14,701 nt of DNA from a virus (Duplodnaviria > Heunggongvirae > Uroviricota > Caudoviricetes): the IMG/VR virus record IMGVR_UViG_3300029184_000058; one strand, 5' to 3'. Position 1 is the stretch's first letter. Every line of letters begins with the position of its first letter. The notes beneath the pieces were generated by a model, which saw only the letters and a list, made by a program, of their open reading frames with translations, was not told the DNA's origin and made no database searches. A program made the translations under genes and the position numbers. Positions 2,160 through 14,701 of the stretch are shown piece after piece.

Positions 2160-2388
2160 AGCACCTTTCTTATTGATTTCATATTGGCGAGGTAGCGGGA
2201 GTTAAGTAAAATTGCTGCGGGTGCTTGAGGCTATCTGCCTCAGGCATGAACACCAAAAGGCAGATAGAGAAAAGCCCCAGTTAACATTACGCGTCCTGCA
2301 AGACGCTTAACATTAATCTGAGGCTCAATCTATGCTGAACACATGTAGGTTAGCCTCTTACGTGCCGAAAGGCAAGGAGAAGCAGGCT
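2160..2388 (+). promoter_or_regulatory. hok-type mRNA leader: structured 5' UTR with an in-frame upstream (mok-like) start at 2332; expected target region for an antisense Sok-like RNA
   Basis: Perfect 9-bp inverted repeat CTATCTGCC (2231-2239) / GGCAGATAG (2259-2267) with an inner palindrome TGCCTCAGGCA. In-frame ATG at 2332 upstream of the hok start. AAGGAG SD at 2374-2379. A 3' hairpin (2552-2573, GGCGAGGG/CCCTCGCC) follows the hok stop. The antisense RNA itself was not located. Confidence 0.35.
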
Positions 2389-2544
2389 ATGAAGCAGCAA
2401 AAGGCGATGTTAATCGCCCTGATCGTCATCTGTTTAACCGTCATAGTGACGGCACTGGTAACGAGGAAAGACCTCTGCGAGGTACGAATCCGAACCGGGC
2501 AGACGGAGGTCGCTGTCTTCACAGCTTACGAACCTGAGGAGTAA
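2389..2544 (+). CDS. hokD: Hok/Gef-family type I toxin (small membrane toxin), hokD/relF-like
   Basis: 51-aa product MKQQKAMLIALIVICLTVIVTALVTRKDLCEVRIRTGQTEVAVFTAYEPEE: single N-terminal TM helix, then the conserved RKxLCE...TGQxEVAxF Hok/Gef signature. SD AAGGAG 9 nt upstream. The hokD symbol is from memory of the E. coli Qin-prophage paralogue. Confidence 0.85.
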   Translation: MKQQKAMLIALIVICLTVIVTALVTRKDLCEVRIRTGQTEVAVFTAYEPEE

Positions 2545-3010: not shown

Positions 3011-3610
3011 ATGGCGCATATACAACTGGTCAAACAAACTTCTTCTGGTTTACTTCTCCCGGCGACGCCGGAGAGTTGCGATTTTCTGCATCAAATCAAA
3101 ATAGGTGAGTGGATACACGCAGACTTTAAGCGTGTGCGTAACTACGCATTCCACAAGCGTTTTTTCAAACTCCTGCAACTGGGATTCGATTACTGGACTC
3201 CGGTCGGTGGGGCGATCACGCCTCGCGAACGAGAACTGCTGTCTGGTTTCGTGGATTACCTGTGCGAATCAGTTGGTCGGGAACATACGCCAGCCCTGAG
3301 TGATGCCGCAGAGCAATACCTTAACACCGTTGCGACTCGCAGAACCCGGGATACGGCGTTGCTAAAGTCGTTTGAGGCTTTCCGCGAGTGGGTAACCATT
3401 CAGGCCGGATTTTACACCGAGCATATTTATCCGGACGGTAGCCGTGGGCGTCGGGCAAAATCCATCGCTTTTGCGAATATGGACGAAGTCGAGTTTCAGC
3501 AGGTTTATAAATCTGTACTGAATGTGCTGTGGAACTGGATTCTGTTCCGTAAATTCTCCTCTCAGGAGGAAGTTGAAAATGTGGCCGCACAACTACTGGA
3601 GTTTGCGTAA
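3011..3610 (+). CDS. Conserved lambdoid nin-region protein (DUF1367-like, about 200 aa), function unknown
   Basis: 199-codon ORF with regular coding composition. Its stop overlaps the start of the next gene (TAATG at 3608-3612). The DUF1367 assignment is from recalled family size and synteny with the YbcO-like gene, not from a search. Confidence 0.7.
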   Translation: MAHIQLVKQTSSGLLLPATPESCDFLHQIKIGEWIHADFKRVRNYAFHKRFFKLLQLGFDYWTPVGGAITPRERELLSGFVDYLCESVGREHTPALSDAAEQYLNTVATRRTRDTALLKSFEAFREWVTIQAGFYTEHIYPDGSRGRRAKSIAFANMDEVEFQQVYKSVLNVLWNWILFRKFSSQEEVENVAAQLLEFA

Positions 3611-3900
3611 TGGTGAATTTACGTAAAGCGGCTAAAGGCCAGATGTGCCAGATCAGAATCCCTGGCTACTGCAATCACAATCCCGAAACCTCTGTGCTGG
3701 CGCATTACAGGCTGGCGGGGACGTGCGGAACAGCGACAAAACCACACGATATGCAGGCAGCGATTGCCTGTAACTCATGCCACGATTTAATCGACGGGCG
3801 GGTAAAAACCAGTGATTACACCAAAGAAGAATTACGCCTGATGCATGCAGAAGGTGTTTTTCGCACGCAAGAAATCTGGAGAAAGGAAGGTTATTTATGA
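3610..3900 (+). CDS. YbcO-like (DUF1364) small Cys-rich putative nuclease
   Basis: 96-aa product with Cys/His clusters (CQIRIPGYCNHNPE ... CNSCHD) matching the roughly 95-aa YbcO family of lambdoid prophages. Start overlaps the upstream stop; its own stop overlaps the Q-like start (ATGA at 3897-3900). Confidence 0.75.
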   Translation: MVNLRKAAKGQMCQIRIPGYCNHNPETSVLAHYRLAGTCGTATKPHDMQAAIACNSCHDLIDGRVKTSDYTKEELRLMHAEGVFRTQEIWRKEGYL

Positions 3901-4433
3901 TTTACCCAACAAATACAGGCAAAAGCGGGGAACACCTTCGTCTCACCACGCTGGAAAGTGTCTGGATTCAGGGAAAACTGCGCATGTGGGGGCGCTGGTC
4001 GTATATTGGCGGCGGTAAGACGGGGAATATGTTTAACCAGTTGCTGGCGTCAAAAAAATTGACGAAAACAGCCATCAATGAAGCCCTGCGCAGAATGAAA
4101 AAAGCGGGAATAGAGAAAGCTGAGCTGGAAGCGTTTTTGCGAGAGATGATCAACGGCAAGCAAAAGAGCTGGCTGGCGCATTGTACTGATGCAGAGGCAC
4201 TAAAAATTGATAGTGTTATAGGTGAAGTTCTGGCGGATCATCCAGGACTACTAAATGTCCTGAGTCAGCGTTATGTGGGGCGAGGGATGAGTAAGAGAAG
4301 GATGGCCGAGTTATTAAACGAACAGTACCCAGAGTGGGCGTTGATTACATGCCGACGTCGTGTTGATCAGTGGTTGCGTGTTGCTGAGTTCATTTTGTAT
4401 TCACCTATGAGAGAAGCGTTCGATTATGCTTAA
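3897..4433 (+). CDS. Putative late-gene antiterminator (Q-like)
   Basis: 178-aa ORF, last gene of the operon, sitting directly upstream of a promoter-like element plus intrinsic terminator, the tRNA genes and the lysis cassette: the canonical Q position. Sequence family not recognised with certainty. Confidence 0.55.
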   Translation: MIYPTNTGKSGEHLRLTTLESVWIQGKLRMWGRWSYIGGGKTGNMFNQLLASKKLTKTAINEALRRMKKAGIEKAELEAFLREMINGKQKSWLAHCTDAEALKIDSVIGEVLADHPGLLNVLSQRYVGRGMSKRRMAELLNEQYPEWALITCRRRVDQWLRVAEFILYSPMREAFDYA

Positions 4434-5337: not shown

Positions 5338-5720
5338 TCTTAATTCGAAAAAAGAAAACACGGACACTGATAATGTCCGTGCGGCAATGCCATGTAAGTC
5401 AGTGATGAATATGGCGCAAAAAAAGCGCGGCTGTCGGATTAACGCCGCGGGACAAAGTCCGTGAAGAAGAATAAGTATCGGTCTCCTTCCGGAGACGAGT
5501 TGATATTACTAAGCTTTAAAAATGGTTTAAATCCTCAGATTAACCTTAATTTCAGATAAGGTTTATTTCATTTTCTCCGCGTCACATCCGACGCACATCA
5601 CATCAGATAACACCACACAAAAGGCATCTGCGGGTGTCTTTGACGGGGTGTTTTTTACGGGCCGCTGGTGGCCATTTTTTGTTTCCATTACACAGCGCCC
5701 GCATCTGCGAGGTGGGGGTT

Positions 5721-5936
5721 ATGAAATCCATGGATAAGTTAACAACGGGTGTCGCCTATGGCACCTCCGCAGGCAGTGCTGGCTACTGGTTTTTACAGCT
5801 GCTCGATAAAGTCACGCCCTCACAGTGGGCAGCAATAGGTGTGCTGGGTAGCTTGGTATTTGGCCTGCTGACGTACCTGACAAACCTTTATTTCAAGATT
5901 AAAGAAGATAAGCGCAAGGCTGCGAGAGGTGAATAA
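5721..5936 (+). CDS. S: Class II pinholin, phage-21 S-type, with dual-start motif (Met1-Lys-Ser-Met4)
   Basis: 71-aa product [28 protein letters not shown]...: two TM segments (Gly/Ala-rich TMD1, then [18 protein letters not shown]), charged C-terminus, and the two-Met start typical of antiholin/holin pairs. SD GAGGTGGGGG just upstream. The track's longer ORF from 5634 lacks an SD and would add a non-homologous extension. Confidence 0.9.
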
Positions 5937-6433
5937 TGCCTCCATCATTACGAAAAGCCGTTGCTGCTGCTATTGGTGGCGGAGCAATTGCTATAGCATC
6001 AGTGTTAATCACTGGCCCAAGTGGTAACGATGGTCTGGAAGGTGTCAGCTACATACCATACAAAGATATTGTTGGTGTATGGACTGTATGTCACGGGCAT
6101 ACAGGAAAAGACATCATGCTCGGTAAAACGTATACCAAAGCAGAATGCAAAGCCCTCCTGAATAAAGACCTTGCCACGGTCGCCAGACAAATTAACCCGT
6201 ACATAAAAGTTGATATACCGGAAACAACGCGCGGCGCTCTTTACTCGTTCGTTTACAACGTGGGCGCTGGCAATTTCAGAACATCGACGCTTCTTCGCAA
6301 AATAAACCAGGGCGATATCAAAGGCGCATGTGATCAGCTACGTCGCTGGACATATGCTGGCGGTAAGCAATGGAAAGGTCTCATGACTCGTCGTGAGATT
6401 GAGCGTGAAATCTGTTTGTGGGGTCAGCAATGA
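5936..6433 (+). CDS. R: SAR endolysin (T4-lysozyme-like muramidase with N-terminal signal-anchor-release domain)
   Basis: 165 aa. N-terminal Gly/Ala-rich weakly hydrophobic segment ([20 protein letters not shown]), then a catalytic triad at E35, D44 and T50 ([18 protein letters not shown]). Start overlaps the holin stop (TAATG). Confidence 0.93.
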
Positions 6434-6894
6434 ACAGAGTAACCGCGATTATCTCCGCTCTGGTTATCTGCATCATCGTCTGCCTGTCATGGGCTGTTAA
6501 TCATTACCGTGATAATGCCATTACCTACAAAGCGCAACGCGATAATGTGAAGGAAAAACTCAACCAGGCGACCGCAATCATTACTGACATGCAGATACGC
6601 CAGCGTGATGTTGCTGCACTCGATGCAAAATACCTGAAGGAGTTAGCTGATGCGAAAGCTGAAAATGATGCTCTGCGTGATGATGTTGCCGCTGGTCGTC
6701 GTCGGTTGCACATCAAAGCAGTCTGTCCGTCCGTGCGTGAAGCCACCATCGCCTCCAGCGTGGATAATGCAGTCTCCCCCAGACTGGCAGACACCGCTGA
6801 ACGGGATTATTTCACCCTCCGGGAACGACTGGTAATGATGCAGGCCCAACTTGAAGGTGCTCAGCAATACATAACCGAACAGTGTTTAAAGTAA
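6430..6894 (+). CDS. Rz: Rz i-spanin (inner-membrane spanin subunit)
   Basis: ATG 6430 overlaps the endolysin stop (ATGA). N-terminal TM helix ([16 protein letters not shown]) followed by a charged coiled-coil-like periplasmic domain. The track's GTG 6418 start is less likely. Confidence 0.85.
6650..6835 (+). CDS. Rz1: Rz1 o-spanin (outer-membrane lipoprotein), embedded in the +1 frame of Rz
   Basis: 61 aa, wholly inside Rz in a different frame. Signal peptide with lipobox VVGC, proline-rich mature region (PPSPPAW...PPDW). SD GAAGGAG 8 nt upstream of the ATG. Confidence 0.8.
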
Positions 6895-7031
6895 AATCTT
6901 AACTACAATATGATTCATTTTGATGATTGTTTCATAAGGAACAGTGAAGTAAGATCTAAGATGAGTTAAATTTTATACAGTATAATAATAATGTTGCAGC
7001 AAGGTGGTTATAATTGAAAGAATATTTAGAT

Positions 7032-8489
7032 ATGAATACATCTCATATAAGAGTTGTTACTCATATGTGTGGGTTCCTGGTTTGGCTCTATAGTCTTTCA
7101 ATGTTGCCACCAATGGTTGTAGCATTGTTTTATAAAGAAAAAAGCCTGTTCGTTTTCTTTATAACTTTTGTTATATTTTTTTGCATTGGTGGCGGAGCGT
7201 GGTATACAACTAAGAAATCTGGTATTCAATTACGTACTCGTGATGGGTTTATTATAATTGTAATGTTTTGGATTTTGTTTTCTGTTATTAGTGCATTCCC
7301 TTTATGGATTGACTCAGAACTTAATTTAACGTTTATTGATGCTCTATTTGAAGGGGTTTCTGGAATAACAACAACAGGAGCAACTGTAATTGATGATGTT
7401 AGTTCATTACCTCGGGCATATTTGTACTATCGGTCACAGTTAAATTTTATAGGTGGTTTAGGAGTTATTGTTCTGGCGGTTGCTGTATTGCCATTATTGG
7501 GTATTGGTGGTGCAAAGCTTTATCAGTCAGAAATGCCAGGGCCATTTAAGGATGACAAACTTACTCCCCGCCTGGCCGATACGTCACGGACACTTTGGAT
7601 AACTTATTCTTTATTAGGTATTGCTTGTATTGTCTGTTATAGACTTGCAGGAATGCCTTTGTTTGATGCTATTTGTCACGGGATATCCACAGTTTCGCTT
7701 GGTGGTTTCTCAACTCATAGCGAGAGTATCGGATATTTTAATAACTATTTGGTTGAGCTGGTGGCTGGTTCTTTTTCCCTGCTATCGGCTTTCAACTTCA
7801 CCCTTTGGTATATTGTTATTAGCAGGAAAACGTTAAAACCTTTAATCAGAGATATTGAACTTCGTTTCTTTCTGTTAATAGCCTTAGGGGTGATCATTGT
7901 TACCTCTTTCCAGGTCTGGCATATAGGTATGTATGACTTGCCAGGAAGTTTTATTCATTCGTTTTTTCTTGCCAGCTCCATGCTCACTGATAATGGTTTA
8001 GCTACGCAGGATTATGCAAACTGGCCCACGCACACGATAGTGTTTTTGCTGTTGTCAAGTTTCTTTGGGGGATGTATAGGTTCAACTTGTGGTGGAATTA
8101 AGTCACTTCGATTTCTTATACTTTTCAAACAAAGCAAACACGAGATAAACCAGCTTTCTCATCCCAGAGCGTTGTTGAGTGTAAATGTAGGAGGGAAGAT
8201 AGTTACAGATCGTGTAATGAGGTCTGTATGGAGTTTCTTTTTTCTTTATACTCTCTTCACGGTGTTTTTTATACTGGTGTTAAATGGTATGGGATATGAT
8301 TTTCTTACATCATTTGCAACAGTGGCTGCATGTATTAATAATATGGGATTAGGTTTTGGGGCTACTGCATCGTCATTCGGAGTGCTTAATGACATTGCAA
8401 AATATTTAATGTGCATAGCTATGATTCTTGGTCGCCTTGAAATTTATCCTGTTATTATATTGTTTTCAGGTTTTTTTTGGCGCTCCTAA
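7032..8489 (+). CDS. trkG: TrkG/TrkH-family K+ uptake membrane protein (cargo gene)
   Basis: 485 aa from ATG 7032 (an alternative TTG at 7014 has an AAGGTGG SD). Polytopic membrane protein with TrkH-family motifs (FEGVSGITTTGATV, LGIGGAKLYQSEMPGP, GGCIGSTCGGIK, MGLGFGAT). Strikingly AT-rich with A/T-ending codons, unlike its neighbours. Position right after Rz/Rz1 matches what I recall for trkG in the E. coli Rac prophage. Confidence 0.9.
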   Translation: MNTSHIRVVTHMCGFLVWLYSLSMLPPMVVALFYKEKSLFVFFITFVIFFCIGGGAWYTTKKSGIQLRTRDGFIIIVMFWILFSVISAFPLWIDSELNLTFIDALFEGVSGITTTGATVIDDVSSLPRAYLYYRSQLNFIGGLGVIVLAVAVLPLLGIGGAKLYQSEMPGPFKDDKLTPRLADTSRTLWITYSLLGIACIVCYRLAGMPLFDAICHGISTVSLGGFSTHSESIGYFNNYLVELVAGSFSLLSAFNFTLWYIVISRKTLKPLIRDIELRFFLLIALGVIIVTSFQVWHIGMYDLPGSFIHSFFLASSMLTDNGLATQDYANWPTHTIVFLLLSSFFGGCIGSTCGGIKSLRFLILFKQSKHEINQLSHPRALLSVNVGGKIVTDRVMRSVWSFFFLYTLFTVFFILVLNGMGYDFLTSFATVAACINNMGLGFGATASSFGVLNDIAKYLMCIAMILGRLEIYPVIILFSGFFWRS

Positions 8490-8573
8490 TATATGGCTGA
8501 TTTATAATTGTGAGTTTAATATTATATTGACTCACTCATTGATCCAATACCTAACTTTACCAGCAACACCTCC

Positions 8574-8610
8574 GCCCCCAGTAGCACTGGCTGCTGGGGT
8601 GCGTTTTATT
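8574..8610 (+). terminator. Probable intrinsic terminator after trkG
   Basis: GC-rich inverted repeat CCCCAG...CTGGGG (with inner CAGT/ACTG) at 8575-8598, followed by TGCGTTTTATT. Confidence 0.35.
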
Positions 8611-8626
8611 CATAAAGCAAGGCTGT

Positions 8627-9418
8627 ATGAGCGAGAAATTAAAGATAGTCTATCGCCCATTACAAGAATTGTCACCGTATGCGCACAACGCCAGGACGCA
8701 CAGTACTGAGCAGGTGGCACAACTGGTAGAAAGTATTAAGCAATTCGGCTGGACTAATCCGGTGCTGATTGACGAAAAGGGCGAAATTATTGCGGGTCAC
8801 GGTCGTGTTATGGCGGCTGAAATGCTCAAAATGGATTCTGTTCCGGTCATTGTTCTGTCTGGCCTGACGGATGAGCAGAAAAAGGCGTACCGCTTGGCAG
8901 ATAATCGCCTACCGATGAATGCTGGCTGGGATGAAGATCTGTTGCGGATGGAGCTGTCGGACCTAATCAATGCTGATTTTGATGTCTCCCTGACAGGCTT
9001 CAGCACGACAGAAATTGATGAACTGTTGACGAATGTTTTGCCCGGTACAGGAAATAAGGAGGAGCCGTATACGACGAAAATTGATACGCCTGTTTATGAG
9101 CCGTCGGGCGGTAAACCGGATATCAGTGAACTGTACGACGATACGAAAACTCAGGAGCTGATCAGCCGGATACGTTCGGCGTCCCTTGATCCTGATATTG
9201 AGAAATTCCTCCTGTGTGCGGCAGAACGTCACACGGTGTTTAATTTCAGCAGAATTGCGGACTATTACGCTCATGCCCCCGCTGAAATTCAGTGCCTTTT
9301 CGAGGAGTCGGCGCTGGTGATCATTGATTATCAGCAGGCTATTGAAAATGGATTTGTCCGAATGACGCAGCGCATGGTGGAGATCATGCATGGCGGGGAG
9401 GAGGAGGAATATGCGTGA
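8627..9418 (+). CDS. ParB-like nuclease-domain protein (ParB/Srx fold), N-terminal ParB domain plus uncharacterised C-terminal region
   Basis: 263 aa. N-terminus has the ParB N-domain pattern (LKIVYRPLQELSPYAHNART...VESIKQFGWTNPVLIDEKGEIIAGHGRVMAA). Its stop (9416-9418) overlaps the ATG of the next gene. Possibly the intact form of a short Rac remnant (ynaK), from memory. Confidence 0.8.
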   Translation: MSEKLKIVYRPLQELSPYAHNARTHSTEQVAQLVESIKQFGWTNPVLIDEKGEIIAGHGRVMAAEMLKMDSVPVIVLSGLTDEQKKAYRLADNRLPMNAGWDEDLLRMELSDLINADFDVSLTGFSTTEIDELLTNVLPGTGNKEEPYTTKIDTPVYEPSGGKPDISELYDDTKTQELISRIRSASLDPDIEKFLLCAAERHTVFNFSRIADYYAHAPAEIQCLFEESALVIIDYQQAIENGFVRMTQRMVEIMHGGEEEEYA

Positions 9419-10343
9419 TGATTTTTGCGCCTTTATTCTGACTCACGGGCGACCGGACAAAGTTCTGACTTACCGGACGTTGCGTCGTGCTGGCTATACC
9501 GGGAAAATTTTTATCGTTGTTGATGATGAAGATAAGACACGGCATCAGTACATGGCTGAATTTGGTGAACAGGTGCTGGTGTTTTCCAAAGCCGATATCG
9601 CCAGTCGTTTTGACGAAGCCGATAATTTCGGTGACCGCCGCTCAATTTTTTACGCCCGTAATGCCTGTTTCGACCTGGCAAAACTGGTCGGGTGTAAATA
9701 CTTCATTCAGCTCGATGATGATTATCACGAGTTCCAGTTTCGGGTGGATCGCAACTATGACCAGGCCTATTTTCCGATAAGGAAACTGGATGCGATCCTT
9801 TCTGAAATGCTGGCGTACTACGAATCAATACCTGCTCTTTCCATCGCTATGTCGCAGGGCGGGGATTTTCTTGGTGACAATGGCGGCCATGCTTCGTGGG
9901 TGAAACGCAAGGCAATGAACAGCTTTATCTGTTCGGTTGATCGACCGTTCTCATTCATGGGGCGCATTAACGAGGATGTGAATACGTACACGAATCTCGG
10001 TCGCTGTGGTGAATTGTTTATGACGATCGGTGCTGTCCAGTTAGGGCAGAAACAGACGCAGAAAAACAGCGGCGGAATGACCGAGCTGTATCTGGATTCC
10101 GGAACCTACGTTAAAAGTTTTTACTCCGTCATGTATGCGCCGTCGTGCGTAAAAATCTCACTGATGGGTGCCAGCCATAAACGCATTCACCATCAGGTCA
10201 CCTGGAACAACGCCGCAGTAAAAATCCTTCACGAAAAATACAGGAAGAAGACACCCTGCATATCAATAGGGGTGACAAATGATTCCGTATTCGAAAGTCG
10301 AGTCTCTGGCAGCGTGCCGGATGACTGCACAACAAATCGCTGA
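9411..10343 (+). CDS. Uncharacterised protein with GT-A-like DxD signature (putative nucleotide-sugar or nucleotide transferase fold), coupled to the ParB-like gene
   Basis: ATG 9411 is preceded by a strong SD (GGAGGAGGAGG, 9396-9406); the track's 9390 start is in the same frame but lacks one. It has an IFIVVDDED strand, a hydrophobic strand + DDD (KYFIQLDDDY) about 60 residues later, and an ED...G segment (INEDVNTYTNLGRCGELF), reminiscent of GT-A/GT2 enzymes. No TM segments. Fold assignment is by eye. Confidence 0.6.
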   Translation: MRDDFCAFILTHGRPDKVLTYRTLRRAGYTGKIFIVVDDEDKTRHQYMAEFGEQVLVFSKADIASRFDEADNFGDRRSIFYARNACFDLAKLVGCKYFIQLDDDYHEFQFRVDRNYDQAYFPIRKLDAILSEMLAYYESIPALSIAMSQGGDFLGDNGGHASWVKRKAMNSFICSVDRPFSFMGRINEDVNTYTNLGRCGELFMTIGAVQLGQKQTQKNSGGMTELYLDSGTYVKSFYSVMYAPSCVKISLMGASHKRIHHQVTWNNAAVKILHEKYRKKTPCISIGVTNDSVFESRVSGSVPDDCTTNR

Positions 10344-10530
10344 CGTTCTGGATGTTGATCTGAACCGACTGAAAGAAAATCGGGAAGCAATGACAGATTT
10401 TTATGCGGCCATCCGTAAGGGCAGAGCGAAAGGTGAAGCCGAGTTACGAGCGGCATTGTTTAAGCTTGCCAGAAAAGGGGATGCCTTTGCTCTGCGCGAA
10501 CTACTCAGGGTGGATAAAAATCAGGACTAA
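10279..10530 (+). CDS. Small hypothetical protein with HTH-like segment, immediately upstream of the small terminase
   Basis: 83-codon ORF with SD-like GGGGTGA upstream of ATG 10279; alternative start ATG 10321. It overlaps the 3' end of the previous gene by 65 nt, so the start is uncertain. Stop is 3 nt before the TerS start. Confidence 0.5.
   Translation: MIPYSKVESLAACRMTAQQIADVLDVDLNRLKENREAMTDFYAAIRKGRAKGEAELRAALFKLARKGDAFALRELLRVDKNQD

Positions 10531-14299: not shown

Positions 14300-14319
<20 letters not shown>
12913..14319 (+). CDS. Portal protein (DUF4055-type)
   Basis: 468-aa ORF starting 3 nt after the large terminase stop, the canonical portal position. Size and acidic C-terminus are consistent with a portal; family name is from memory. 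Confidence 0.75.

Positions 14320-14701
<382 letters not shown>

What the first reader, a model, noticed from the sequence alone, without database searches (positions are those of the whole stretch)
8627..10343. ParB-like nuclease-domain protein coupled to a DxD (GT-A-like) protein between the cargo gene and terminase
The two ORFs share an 8-nt stop/start overlap and the second has a very strong SD, so they look like one co-expressed module. The position, immediately upstream of the packaging genes in the moron hotspot, and the domain pair suggest a phage DNA modification, anti-restriction or packaging-linked function. Comparative-genomics work has noted ParB-like domains beside DNA-modifying enzymes in phages, but to my knowledge this pairing has no characterised function. 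No hydroxymethylase or TET/JBP partner is present in the window, so classical hmC/hmU glycosylation is not obviously supported and the substrate is open.
Basis: partly seen in the sequence, partly recalled or inferred. Interest (0 to 1): 0.75.

Follow-up and report, generated by a model that had tools for sequence, protein, structure and literature searches.

The report
ParB-like partner plus phage TAGT glycosyltransferase
Two overlapping late genes of a Rac-like E. coli prophage encode a sugar-transferring enzyme of a DNA-modifying family and its dedicated ParB-like helper, a pair kept together in viruses of bacteria and archaea; its target is unknown because these phages lack the usual precursor pathway.

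Summary

The constant partner of this TAGT clade is that C-terminal domain, not the ParB domain. It sits directly upstream of TAGT in 33 of 33 diverse loci. It also occurs alone, again directly upstream of TAGT in the two families examined. One protein fuses TAGT, ParB and this domain. Both genes are under purifying selection.

No TET/JBP or hydroxymethylase was found in the window, in a related phage genome or in the sampled neighbourhoods. My best reading is a ParB-assisted DNA glycosylation module, analogous to the ParB-dependent phage thymine dioxygenases reported in 2026, with an unidentified acceptor. I rate it a new variant of a known kind. It is untested but easy to test in E. coli.

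The parts
8576..8609 (+). Terminator-like hairpin (10-bp stem, 7 GC pairs) plus T-run between trkG and ORF1. The pair would be read mainly by Q-antiterminated late transcription.
   Evidence: consensus scan only; a Q-like antiterminator lies at 3897-4433. Late expression is inferred.
8627..9418 (+). ORF1, 263 aa: the full-length form of E. coli K-12 YnaK, a ParB-like accessory protein.
   Evidence: It is strongly acidic (pI 4.6, net charge -22). dN/dS is 0.08-0.11.
8627..8926 (+). ORF1 residues 1-100: ParB/Srx nucleotide-binding domain. Box II-like GHGR lies at residues 57-60 (nt 8795-8806) and ADNR at residues 91-94.
8933..9085 (+). ORF1 residues 103-153: acidic helical segment (103-135), then a disordered linker (137-153).
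   Evidence: AlphaFold2 model; net charge -9 for residues 101-145. ParB176 in PMC13229309 has the same domain order.
9062..9415 (+). ORF1 residues 146-263: C-terminal domain with no Pfam family. It has a conserved peptide Y-T-x-K-I-x-x-P-x-Y-E-P (Y148, P155, Y157 invariant), a helical domain (173-227; R201, F205, Y214, E226, D234 invariant) and an acidic tail. It is the dedicated partner of this TAGT clade.
   Evidence: conservation; stand-alone versions next to TAGT; 1,417 representatives at 50% identity; at the C-terminal end of nearly all of the 150 listed; no significant Pfam, PDB sequence or fold match; fusion with TAGT.
9395..9409 (+). Shine-Dalgarno run GGGGAGGAGGAGGAA for ORF2, embedded in the Glu codons of ORF1's tail.
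9411..10343 (+). ORF2, 310 aa: TAGT-family GT-A glycosyltransferase. Key residues are R14, D102-D103-D104 (nt 9714-9722) and E188-D189 (nt 9972-9977). The last ~25 residues are an extension absent from homologues.
   Evidence: dN/dS is 0.05-0.08.
10279..10530 (+). 83-aa terS-like small ORF that overlaps the ORF2 tail by 65 nt. It marks the start of the packaging genes and is context, not part of the module.
   Evidence: phrog_309; homologues follow TAGT in L004, L005 and L032.

Best explanation
ORF1 and ORF2 form a two-protein, late-expressed phage glycosyltransferase module.

Shown by computation. ORF2 is a TAGT-family GT-A enzyme with an intact nucleotide-sugar/metal site. ORF1 is not a partition ParB. 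It has a ParB/Srx nucleotide-binding domain, a linker and a novel C-terminal domain. That C-terminal domain always accompanies this TAGT clade, with or without the ParB domain, and is fused to it in one protein. Both genes are under purifying selection. The pair moves between phages with different terminases.

Inferred. The C-terminal domain docks onto the transferase. The ParB domain is the same kind that phages fuse to DNA methyltransferases; it holds or activates the enzyme on double-stranded DNA, as ParB-like proteins do for phage thymine dioxygenases. The enzyme then transfers a sugar from a UDP-sugar onto progeny phage DNA late in infection, just before packaging, which alters how host nucleases or other defences see that DNA.

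Open. The acceptor in DNA is unknown, because no 5-hydroxymethyl-pyrimidine pathway is present.
For: Enzyme: Pfam TAGT E=6e-35; GT-A fold; R...DDD...ED motifs invariant in 13 homologues, matching the motifs described for DNA-acting phage GT-A enzymes and the base-J glucosyltransferase JGT (bioRxiv 10.1101/2023.12.21.572611).

Complex: the C-domain ORF lies directly upstream of TAGT in 33/33 loci from Proteobacteria, Bacteroidota, Firmicutes, Planctomycetota, Actinobacteria and others. The pair is also present in Lactobacillus phage phi jlb1, a Porphyromonas phage and the archaeal virus HHTV-2, and by gene order only in Nocardia phage NTR1. Stand-alone C-domains lie next to TAGT. P0477 is a TAGT+ParB+C-domain fusion. 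Distance matrices of the two proteins are correlated (r=0.61; 0/2000 permutations reached it).

DNA link: the ORF1 N-terminal module is 40-56% identical to the N-termini of phage DNA methyltransferases (phrog_498 E=1.6e-51; PADLOC MTase_II E=4.5e-38). The module lies among replication or packaging genes. A SAM methyltransferase is an occasional third component. An acceptor shared by viruses of Gram-negative bacteria, Gram-positive bacteria and haloarchaea points to a universal substrate such as DNA.

Precedent: a ParB-like activator with the same domain order and no DNA-binding domain is required by 5mYOX176 on dsDNA (PMC13229309). Iyer et al. 2013, as cited in PMC8256090, proposed that ParB directs modification enzymes to DNA during packaging.

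Selection: dN/dS is 0.05-0.11. The pair is complete in 867 of 5,426 complete E. coli genomes.
Against: No acceptor is known. All characterised TAGT-type or GT-A DNA glycosyltransferases need 5hmC, 5hmU or an existing sugar. Neither the window, a related phage genome that shares this region at 99% identity, nor the sampled neighbourhoods encode a TET/JBP or hydroxymethylase. Pyle et al. themselves regard GT contigs without such neighbours as less obviously involved in DNA hypermodification. ORF1 is very acidic and has no recognisable DNA-binding domain. The animal relative GREB1 is reported to glycosylate a protein (PMC7968844). The acceptor half of the ORF2 model has low confidence. No experiment exists for this pair.
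Confidence: 0.45

Rival explanations
1. Protein glycosylation. ORF2 glycosylates a protein: either its own partner (the invariant Tyr/Thr-rich peptide Y148-T149...Y157 of the C-domain, in the way glycogenin glycosylates itself), a packaging or virion protein, or a host factor.
For: GREB1, a TAGT-domain protein, is reported as an O-GlcNAc transferase (PMC7968844). An invariant exposed peptide with two tyrosines precedes the C-domain in a low-confidence, probably flexible region. A co-encoded partner would be a universal acceptor across host phyla. The pair is adjacent to structural genes. Glycogenin is among the GT-A fold matches, but so are dozens of other enzymes.
Against: The ParB module is the one phages fuse to DNA methyltransferases. 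In a lytic Vibrio phage the pair lies among primase, exonuclease and helicase genes. Characterised phage members of the family act on DNA. A host-protein target is hard to reconcile with 43-57% identity from E. coli to Bacteroides and haloarchaeal viruses.
Confidence: 0.17
2. Packaging function. The ParB-like protein recognises or marks the packaging start site and works with terminase as a TerS accessory or substitute. The transferase has a secondary role.
For: TerS/TerL lie within three genes downstream in about 20 of 28 loci, with several unrelated terminase families. In Nocardia phage NTR1 the pair directly precedes terL and no terS is annotated. Terminases co-occur with 19% of 5mYOX pathways.
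Against: Stand-alone C-domain+TAGT pairs occur without ParB and away from terminase genes. In HHTV-2, eight ORFs separate the pair from terL. The most conserved element is the catalytic transferase. The window has its own terS genes. The start of the late operon is also where phage DNA methyltransferases usually sit, so the position alone fits a modification role equally well.
Confidence: 0.1
3. Orphan hm-pyrimidine glycosyltransferase. The pair acts only on 5hmC/5hmU DNA that it does not make itself, for example the DNA of co-infecting or superinfecting hydroxymethylated phages (interference), or a precursor made by an unrecognised enzyme encoded elsewhere.
For: This matches the known chemistry of the family. 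Pyle et al. speculate that prophage GTs could hypermodify invading genomes. Thousands of 5mYOX-like sequences escape Pfam annotation.
Against: The pair lies behind a terminator in the late operon, not in a lysogen-expressed cassette. There is no PADLOC hit for ORF2. The same stand-alone arrangement recurs in phages of many phyla with no candidate oxygenase within 6-10 kb.
Confidence: 0.13

Closest known systems
ParB-dependent phage thymine dioxygenases (5mYOX176/ParB176; O'Toole et al., PNAS 2026, PMC13229309)
   Same: A phage ParB-like protein with a nucleotide-binding domain, short helical segment, disordered linker and C-terminal domain, and no DNA-binding domain. It is encoded next to a post-replicative DNA-modifying enzyme and is required for that enzyme's activity on dsDNA. 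Glycosyltransferases, ParBs and terminases are the most frequent neighbours in those pathways.
   Different: The partner enzyme here is a glycosyltransferase, not a dioxygenase, and no dioxygenase is present. I could not test whether the C-terminal domains are homologous because the sequences are not held. The C-domain here also exists without the ParB domain.
TAGT / GT-A DNA glycosyltransferases of phages (Pfam PF20691; T6-type second glucosyltransferase; 5mYOX-associated GTs of Burke 2021 and Pyle 2024; trypanosome JGT as structural relative)
   Same: A Pfam family match, the GT-A fold and the conserved R...DDD...ED active-site motifs.
   Different: Those enzymes act on 5hmC, 5hmU or an already attached glucose supplied by a co-encoded pathway. 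This clade travels with a ParB/C-domain protein and with no such pathway. The PHROG-derived name 'beta-glucosyl-HMC-alpha-glucosyltransferase' is therefore not justified for it.
Phage ParB-DNA methyltransferase fusions (ParB_N + N6_N4_Mtase; PHROG 498; noted in Kaljevic et al. 2025, PMC12704722)
   Same: The N-terminal 140 residues, including the helical extension, are 40-56% identical. They occupy the same genomic position upstream of terminase in temperate phages.
   Different: The methyltransferase domain is replaced by the C-domain, and the catalytic activity is supplied in trans by a separate glycosyltransferase.
Chromosome and plasmid partition ParB (Spo0J, P1 ParB, KorB, Noc)
   Same: The fold of the N-terminal domain, with Box II GxxR and Box III N.
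   Different: There is no HTH DNA-binding domain, no ParA partner and no canonical dimerisation domain. The TIGR00180 score is below its cut-off (38 vs 58 bits).

Membership tests
TAGT (PF20691) GT-A glycosyltransferases | Match to the family HMM above the curated cut-off | tested here: met
   121.5 bits against a cut-off of 27.5; residues 8-222 cover profile positions 4-205 of 205. The top BFVD structural matches are TAGT-domain proteins.
TAGT (PF20691) GT-A glycosyltransferases | GT-A fold with a DxD metal/nucleotide-sugar site and the R...DDD...ED[Y/F] motifs | tested here: met
TAGT (PF20691) GT-A glycosyltransferases | Genomic association with a TET/JBP (5mYOX) dioxygenase or a pyrimidine hydroxymethylase that supplies the acceptor | tested here: not met
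   None in the window, in related phage ON470614, which shares this region at 99% identity, or within 6-10 kb in the sampled loci. Limits: Pfam and deposited annotation only, and only the two or three nearest genes on each side were scanned in most loci.
TAGT (PF20691) GT-A glycosyltransferases | Transfer of a sugar to hydroxymethyl-pyrimidine, or to a sugar on it, in DNA | not testable with these tools
   Needs biochemistry or nucleoside mass spectrometry.
ParB/Srx (ParB-CTPase fold) superfamily | ParB_N HMM match and fold, with the Box II arginine | tested here: met
Partition ParB (ParABS) | HTH DNA-binding domain, a ParA partner and parS sites | tested here: not met
   TIGR00180 scores 38.2 against a cut-off of 58.45. 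No HTH domain appears in Pfam or in the model. No parA is annotated in the phage. I did not search for parS.
5mYOX-associated ParB activators (PMC13229309) | NBD, short helical segment, unstructured linker and CTD, with no DNA-binding domain | tested here: met
   The AlphaFold2 model compared with the description.
5mYOX-associated ParB activators (PMC13229309) | A cognate 5mYOX gene next to it, and a homologous CTD | tested here: not met
   No 5mYOX is present. CTD homology was not tested because no sequences are held.
ParB-DNA methyltransferase fusions | A methyltransferase catalytic domain after the ParB module | tested here: not met
   Only the first ~141 residues match (phrog_498 profile positions 31-171 of 633; PADLOC MTase_II positions 13-148 of 436). 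The remainder is the C-domain.
T2/T6 beta-glucosyl-HMC alpha-glucosyltransferase (the name carried by PHROG 842) | A genome with glucosyl-hmC DNA (dCMP hydroxymethylase plus a primary glucosyltransferase) | tested here: not met
   PHROG 842 matches at E=8.6e-104, but the phage has no hmC pathway. No T-even phage appears among the tblastn hits at E<=1e-5.

The most novel reading that the evidence does not exclude
The pair is a self-sufficient DNA glycosylation system that places a sugar on ordinary, non-hydroxymethylated DNA (a canonical base, the backbone or a DNA end). The ParB-like protein would load the enzyme onto dsDNA. That would be a kind of DNA modification not yet described. It would be carried by prophages in roughly one in six complete E. 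coli genomes and by viruses of many bacterial phyla and haloarchaea.
Probability: 0.2. Interest if true: 0.9.

Novelty: new variant of a known kind. Interest (0 to 1): 0.6.

Why it matters
About 65% of phage GT-A/GT-B contigs have no recognisable hydroxymethyl-pyrimidine pathway, and their function is openly unresolved. This module is a large, coherent and strongly conserved subset of them, and it has a defined protein partner. It occurs in E. coli prophages and in cultured Lactobacillus phages (c5, LL-Ku, phi jlb1) and the haloarchaeal virus HHTV-2, so it can be tested directly.

If it modifies DNA, it either reveals a new acceptor chemistry or extends the idea of ParB as activator of DNA-modifying enzymes from dioxygenases to glycosyltransferases. 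It would also explain the origin of the K-12 orphan gene ynaK. If it glycosylates a protein, it would be a new phage protein-modification system. In either case the C-terminal domain of ORF1 deserves a family definition, and the transferred name 'beta-glucosyl-HMC-alpha-glucosyltransferase' should be dropped for this clade.

Tried and rejected
- **Partition ParB:** rejected. There is no HTH domain and no ParA, and the score is below the TIGR00180 cut-off.
- **'Nuclease':** the label comes from the old Pfam name only; nothing here supports nuclease activity.
- **Moron or cargo reading of the position:** rejected, because the same position upstream of terminase recurs across phyla.
- **Defence system:** ORF2 has no PADLOC hit. 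ORF1 hits only through the ParB part of a methyltransferase model.
- **Hidden dioxygenase or hydroxymethylase:** I scanned neighbours with Pfam, including unannotated ORFs at E<=1 in three loci. No TET/JBP or thymidylate-synthase-like hit appeared.
- **C-domain identity:**
  - The profile against PDB sequences gave only chance-level hits (FadA adhesin E=0.027, T4 Rnl2 E=0.09).
  - Pfam gave only sub-threshold PF23887, 'phage L5 gene 47-like', in 17 of 28 members (best E=0.0014).
- **ORF2 against PDB sequences:** no hit.
- **ORF2 model:** only residues 1-150 are confident, so I drew no conclusion about the acceptor site.
- **Unavailable resources:** Iyer et al. 2013 is not in the library, so I cite its content only through papers that quote it. 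The ParB176 and 5mYOX-associated GT sequences are not held, so I made no direct comparison.
- **Wasted searches:** two literature searches were too loosely phrased and returned noise.
- **Mirror-tree correlation:** this shows co-inheritance, not necessarily physical contact.
Full report
**1. Context.** The window is the late region of a Rac-like lambdoid prophage of E. coli. It carries:
- NinB, an HNH endonuclease and a Q-like antiterminator (3011-4433);
- holin, endolysin and Rz (5634-6894);
- the cargo gene trkG (7014-8489);
- the two ORFs of the finding;
- an 83-aa terS-like ORF, then terS, terL, portal and a head-morphogenesis gene.

The 2-kb stretch around the pair is 99% identical to induced E. 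coli phages such as vB_EcoS-666R9. It matches 1,609 of 5,426 complete E. coli genomes, and 867 of them hold at least 80% of it. RefSeq names ORF1 'ynaK: ParB/Srx family N-terminal domain-containing protein' and ORF2 'GREB1-related protein' or 'hypothetical protein'. In K-12 MG1655, ynaK is an 87-aa stump. The large Rac deletion removed the rest of ORF1, ORF2 and the terminase and head genes.

**2. The observation.** It is correct. The ORF1 stop (TGA, 9416-9418) and the ORF2 start (ATG, 9411-9413) overlap in ATGCGTGA, preceded by GGGGAGGAGGAGGAA. Homologues begin at the same MRDDF. The purine run also encodes ORF1's acidic tail, a feature conserved in distant homologues, so it is partly a coding constraint. 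A terminator-like hairpin lies between trkG and ORF1 (8576-8599). Expression therefore probably depends on Q-modified late transcription; this is inferred.

**3. ORF2.**
- Pfam assigns it to TAGT, the 'TET-associated glycosyltransferase' family (E=6e-35).
- PHROG 842 matches at E=8.6e-104.
- R14, D102-D104 and E188-D189 are invariant in homologues down to 59% identity. They correspond to the R...DDD...ED[Y/F] motifs reported for phage GT-A enzymes that glycosylate 5hmC in DNA and for trypanosome JGT.
- The family also contains the T6-type enzyme that adds a second glucose to glucosyl-hmC.
- The last ~25 residues of the E. coli protein are an extension absent elsewhere. They overlap the next ORF.

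**4. ORF1.**
- The model then shows a helical segment (103-135), a disordered linker (137-153) and a small helical C-terminal domain (173-227, pLDDT about 90), followed by a low-confidence helix and an acidic tail.
- There is no HTH domain, the protein is very acidic (pI 4.6), and the phage has no parA. It is therefore not a partition ParB.
- Residues 1-141 are 40-56% identical to the N-termini of many phage DNA methyltransferases (phrog_498; PADLOC MTase_II). This is the known ParB-methyltransferase fusion, which is enriched in prophages (PMC12704722).

**5. The C-terminal domain is the real partner of the enzyme.** I scanned one genome per species with a TAGT alignment and obtained 33 loci from many phyla, at 48-99% identity to ORF2.
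- In all 33, a homologue of ORF1 residues 146-263 lies directly upstream of TAGT, at 40-100% identity (40-57% outside the enterobacterial loci). tblastn detected the ParB part in only 16, although inspection shows ParB-like motifs in the full-length upstream ORFs where the N-terminus is on the contig.
- A search with the C-domain alone found about 130-aa stand-alone proteins. In the two families I looked up (a marine one and one other metagenomic one), these again sit immediately upstream of TAGT, once with a SAM methyltransferase in between.
- A 191-kb lytic Vibrio phage has a 139-aa ORF directly before TAGT, among primase, exonuclease and helicase genes. I did not test whether that ORF is a C-domain homologue.
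- An exhaustive profile search found 1,417 representatives at 50% identity. The domain lies at the C-terminal end of nearly all of the 150 listed; a few carry a 30-50-residue extension after it. Protein lengths cluster near 130 and 250-300 aa.
- One 534-aa protein, P0477, is a TAGT + ParB + C-domain fusion.
- The domain has no Pfam family, no significant PDB sequence match and no structural match.
- It begins with an invariant peptide, Y-[TS]-x-K-[IV]-x-x-P-x-Y-E-P.

**6. Wider distribution and selection.**
- The ParB-like + TAGT pair is annotated in Lactobacillus phage phi jlb1, a Porphyromonas phage at 28% identity and the haloarchaeal virus HHTV-2. Lactobacillus phages c5 and LL-Ku carry TAGT, c5 with a ParB-like gene just upstream. 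In Nocardia phage NTR1 a 282-aa ORF precedes TAGT, but I did not test its homology.
- Terminase genes of several unrelated families follow within three genes in about 20 of 28 loci. Upstream neighbours are replication and recombination genes.
- dN/dS against 90-96% identical E. coli variants is 0.08-0.11 for ORF1 and 0.05-0.08 for ORF2, compared with 0.03 for terL. Some variants (L113, L114) gave no match to this terL, which suggests a different terminase.

**7. The missing precursor pathway.** No TET/JBP dioxygenase, thymidylate-synthase-like hydroxymethylase or C5-methyltransferase is present in the window or in related phage ON470614, which shares this region at 99% identity. None turned up within 6-10 kb in the sampled loci, even at relaxed thresholds. 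One locus does carry a C5-methyltransferase, but no recognisable oxygenase. The survey is limited: in most loci only the nearest genes were scanned with Pfam.

**8. Literature.**
- I found no paper on this pair.
- Iyer et al. 2013 defined TAGT and, as quoted by Burke et al. [quoted passage not shown]
- Pyle et al. showed that 5mYOX-associated GT-A enzymes build glycans on 5hmC. They noted that about 65% of GT contigs have no neighbouring base-modification enzyme.
- O'Toole et al. 2026 showed that a subclass of phage thymine dioxygenases needs a ParB-like activator on dsDNA. That activator has an NBD, a helical segment, a linker and a CTD, and no DNA-binding domain. In those pathways GTs (31%), ParBs (27%) and terminases (19%) are the commonest neighbours.
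- Kaljevic et al. 2025 catalogued ParB-fold fusions in phages. They could not have seen this one, because the C-domain has no Pfam model.

**9. Interpretation.**
- Well supported by computation: the two proteins are one functional unit, the transferase is catalytically intact, and the C-domain is its dedicated partner.
- Inferred: the unit works on DNA. This rests on three things: the kinship of the ParB module with methyltransferase fusions, the family's known substrates, and the need for an acceptor common to viruses of bacteria and archaea. I put this at 0.45.
- Rivals: protein glycosylation including self-glycosylation of the partner's tyrosine-rich peptide (0.17); action on hydroxymethylated DNA made elsewhere (0.13); a packaging role (0.10).
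- The most novel reading still open is direct glycosylation of ordinary DNA (about 0.2).

**10. Verdict.** This is a real, conserved and uncharacterised two-gene module. It is a new variant of a known kind (ParB-assisted DNA-modifying enzymes and TAGT glycosyltransferases), with a previously undescribed partner domain and an open acceptor. It can be tested directly in E. coli.

Noticed in passing
window 8627-8890; L127 4378-4641 (K-12 MG1655): K-12 ynaK (b1365, 87 aa) is only the N-terminal ParB domain of ORF1. The Rac deletion removed the rest of ORF1, ORF2 and the terminase and head genes. A 2026 overexpression screen reported that ynaK raised the MIC of six antibiotics (PMC12924614).
   Followed up: partly
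window 9395-9409: The strong Shine-Dalgarno sequence of ORF2 is formed by the GAG/GAA Glu codons of ORF1's acidic C-terminal tail. Acidic tails recur in homologues from other phyla, so coding and translational signals are superimposed.
   Followed up: partly
window 8576-8609: A terminator-like hairpin with a T-run lies between trkG and ORF1. It suggests that trkG is a separately terminated cargo gene and that the pair depends on antiterminated late transcription.
   Followed up: no
window 10269-10343: ORF2 carries a ~25-residue C-terminal extension absent from all non-E. coli homologues. It overlaps the 83-aa terS-like ORF (10279-10530) by 65 nt in another frame.
   Followed up: no
window 8428-8709: A 93-aa TTG ORF overlaps the start of ORF1 in another frame and matches PHROG 16791 (E=9e-45). 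It is probably a mis-called ORF family propagated in phage annotations.
   Followed up: no
window 2332-2544: A small ORF matches the MokW-like host-killing family (phrog_251, E=8e-33), that is, a hok/mok-type toxin locus in the nin region.
   Followed up: no
L115 6394-7212; L034 6837-7691; L019 189-1739: A class-I SAM methyltransferase (Methyltransf_11/23/25-like in L115) lies between the C-domain gene and TAGT in L115. The Pfam scan counted three Methyltransf_23 matches in the set holding these three ORFs; I assign the other two to the ORF after TAGT in L034 and the N-terminus of the ParB protein in L019 (the latter has a GxGxG-type motif) without seeing per-member hits. This looks like an occasional third component, possibly a sugar O-methyltransferase.
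   Followed up: partly
L124 17837-20316 (also L125): A phage contig carrying the ParB/TAGT pair also has four consecutive GT2-family glycosyltransferase genes just after the major capsid gene. These may serve virion glycosylation.
   Followed up: no
L129 3-3408 (Nocardia phage NTR1): Orf1 (282 aa, upstream of the TAGT gene; its homology to ORF1 was not tested) and Orf2 (TAGT) directly precede the large terminase, and no small terminase is annotated.
   Followed up: no
ORF1 residues 201-220 (window 9227-9286): A weak but recurrent similarity (17 of 28 C-domain members, best E=0.0014, below the cut-off) to Pfam PF23887, 'phage L5 gene 47-like protein'.
   Followed up: partly
L001 26579-27691 (phage ON470614); window 14300-14698: In the related phage the head-morphogenesis (SPP1 gp7-like) gene downstream of portal is annotated as an NAD+-asparagine ADP-ribosyltransferase. 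The window holds only its first 132 codons.
   Followed up: no
L009, L016, L024, L033 upstream ORFs: A Bacteroides group of ORF1 homologues has GNGV in place of the Box II GxxR arginine motif. Nucleotide binding by the ParB domain may therefore be dispensable in some lineages, as the point mutants of ParB176 in PMC13229309 also suggest.
   Followed up: no
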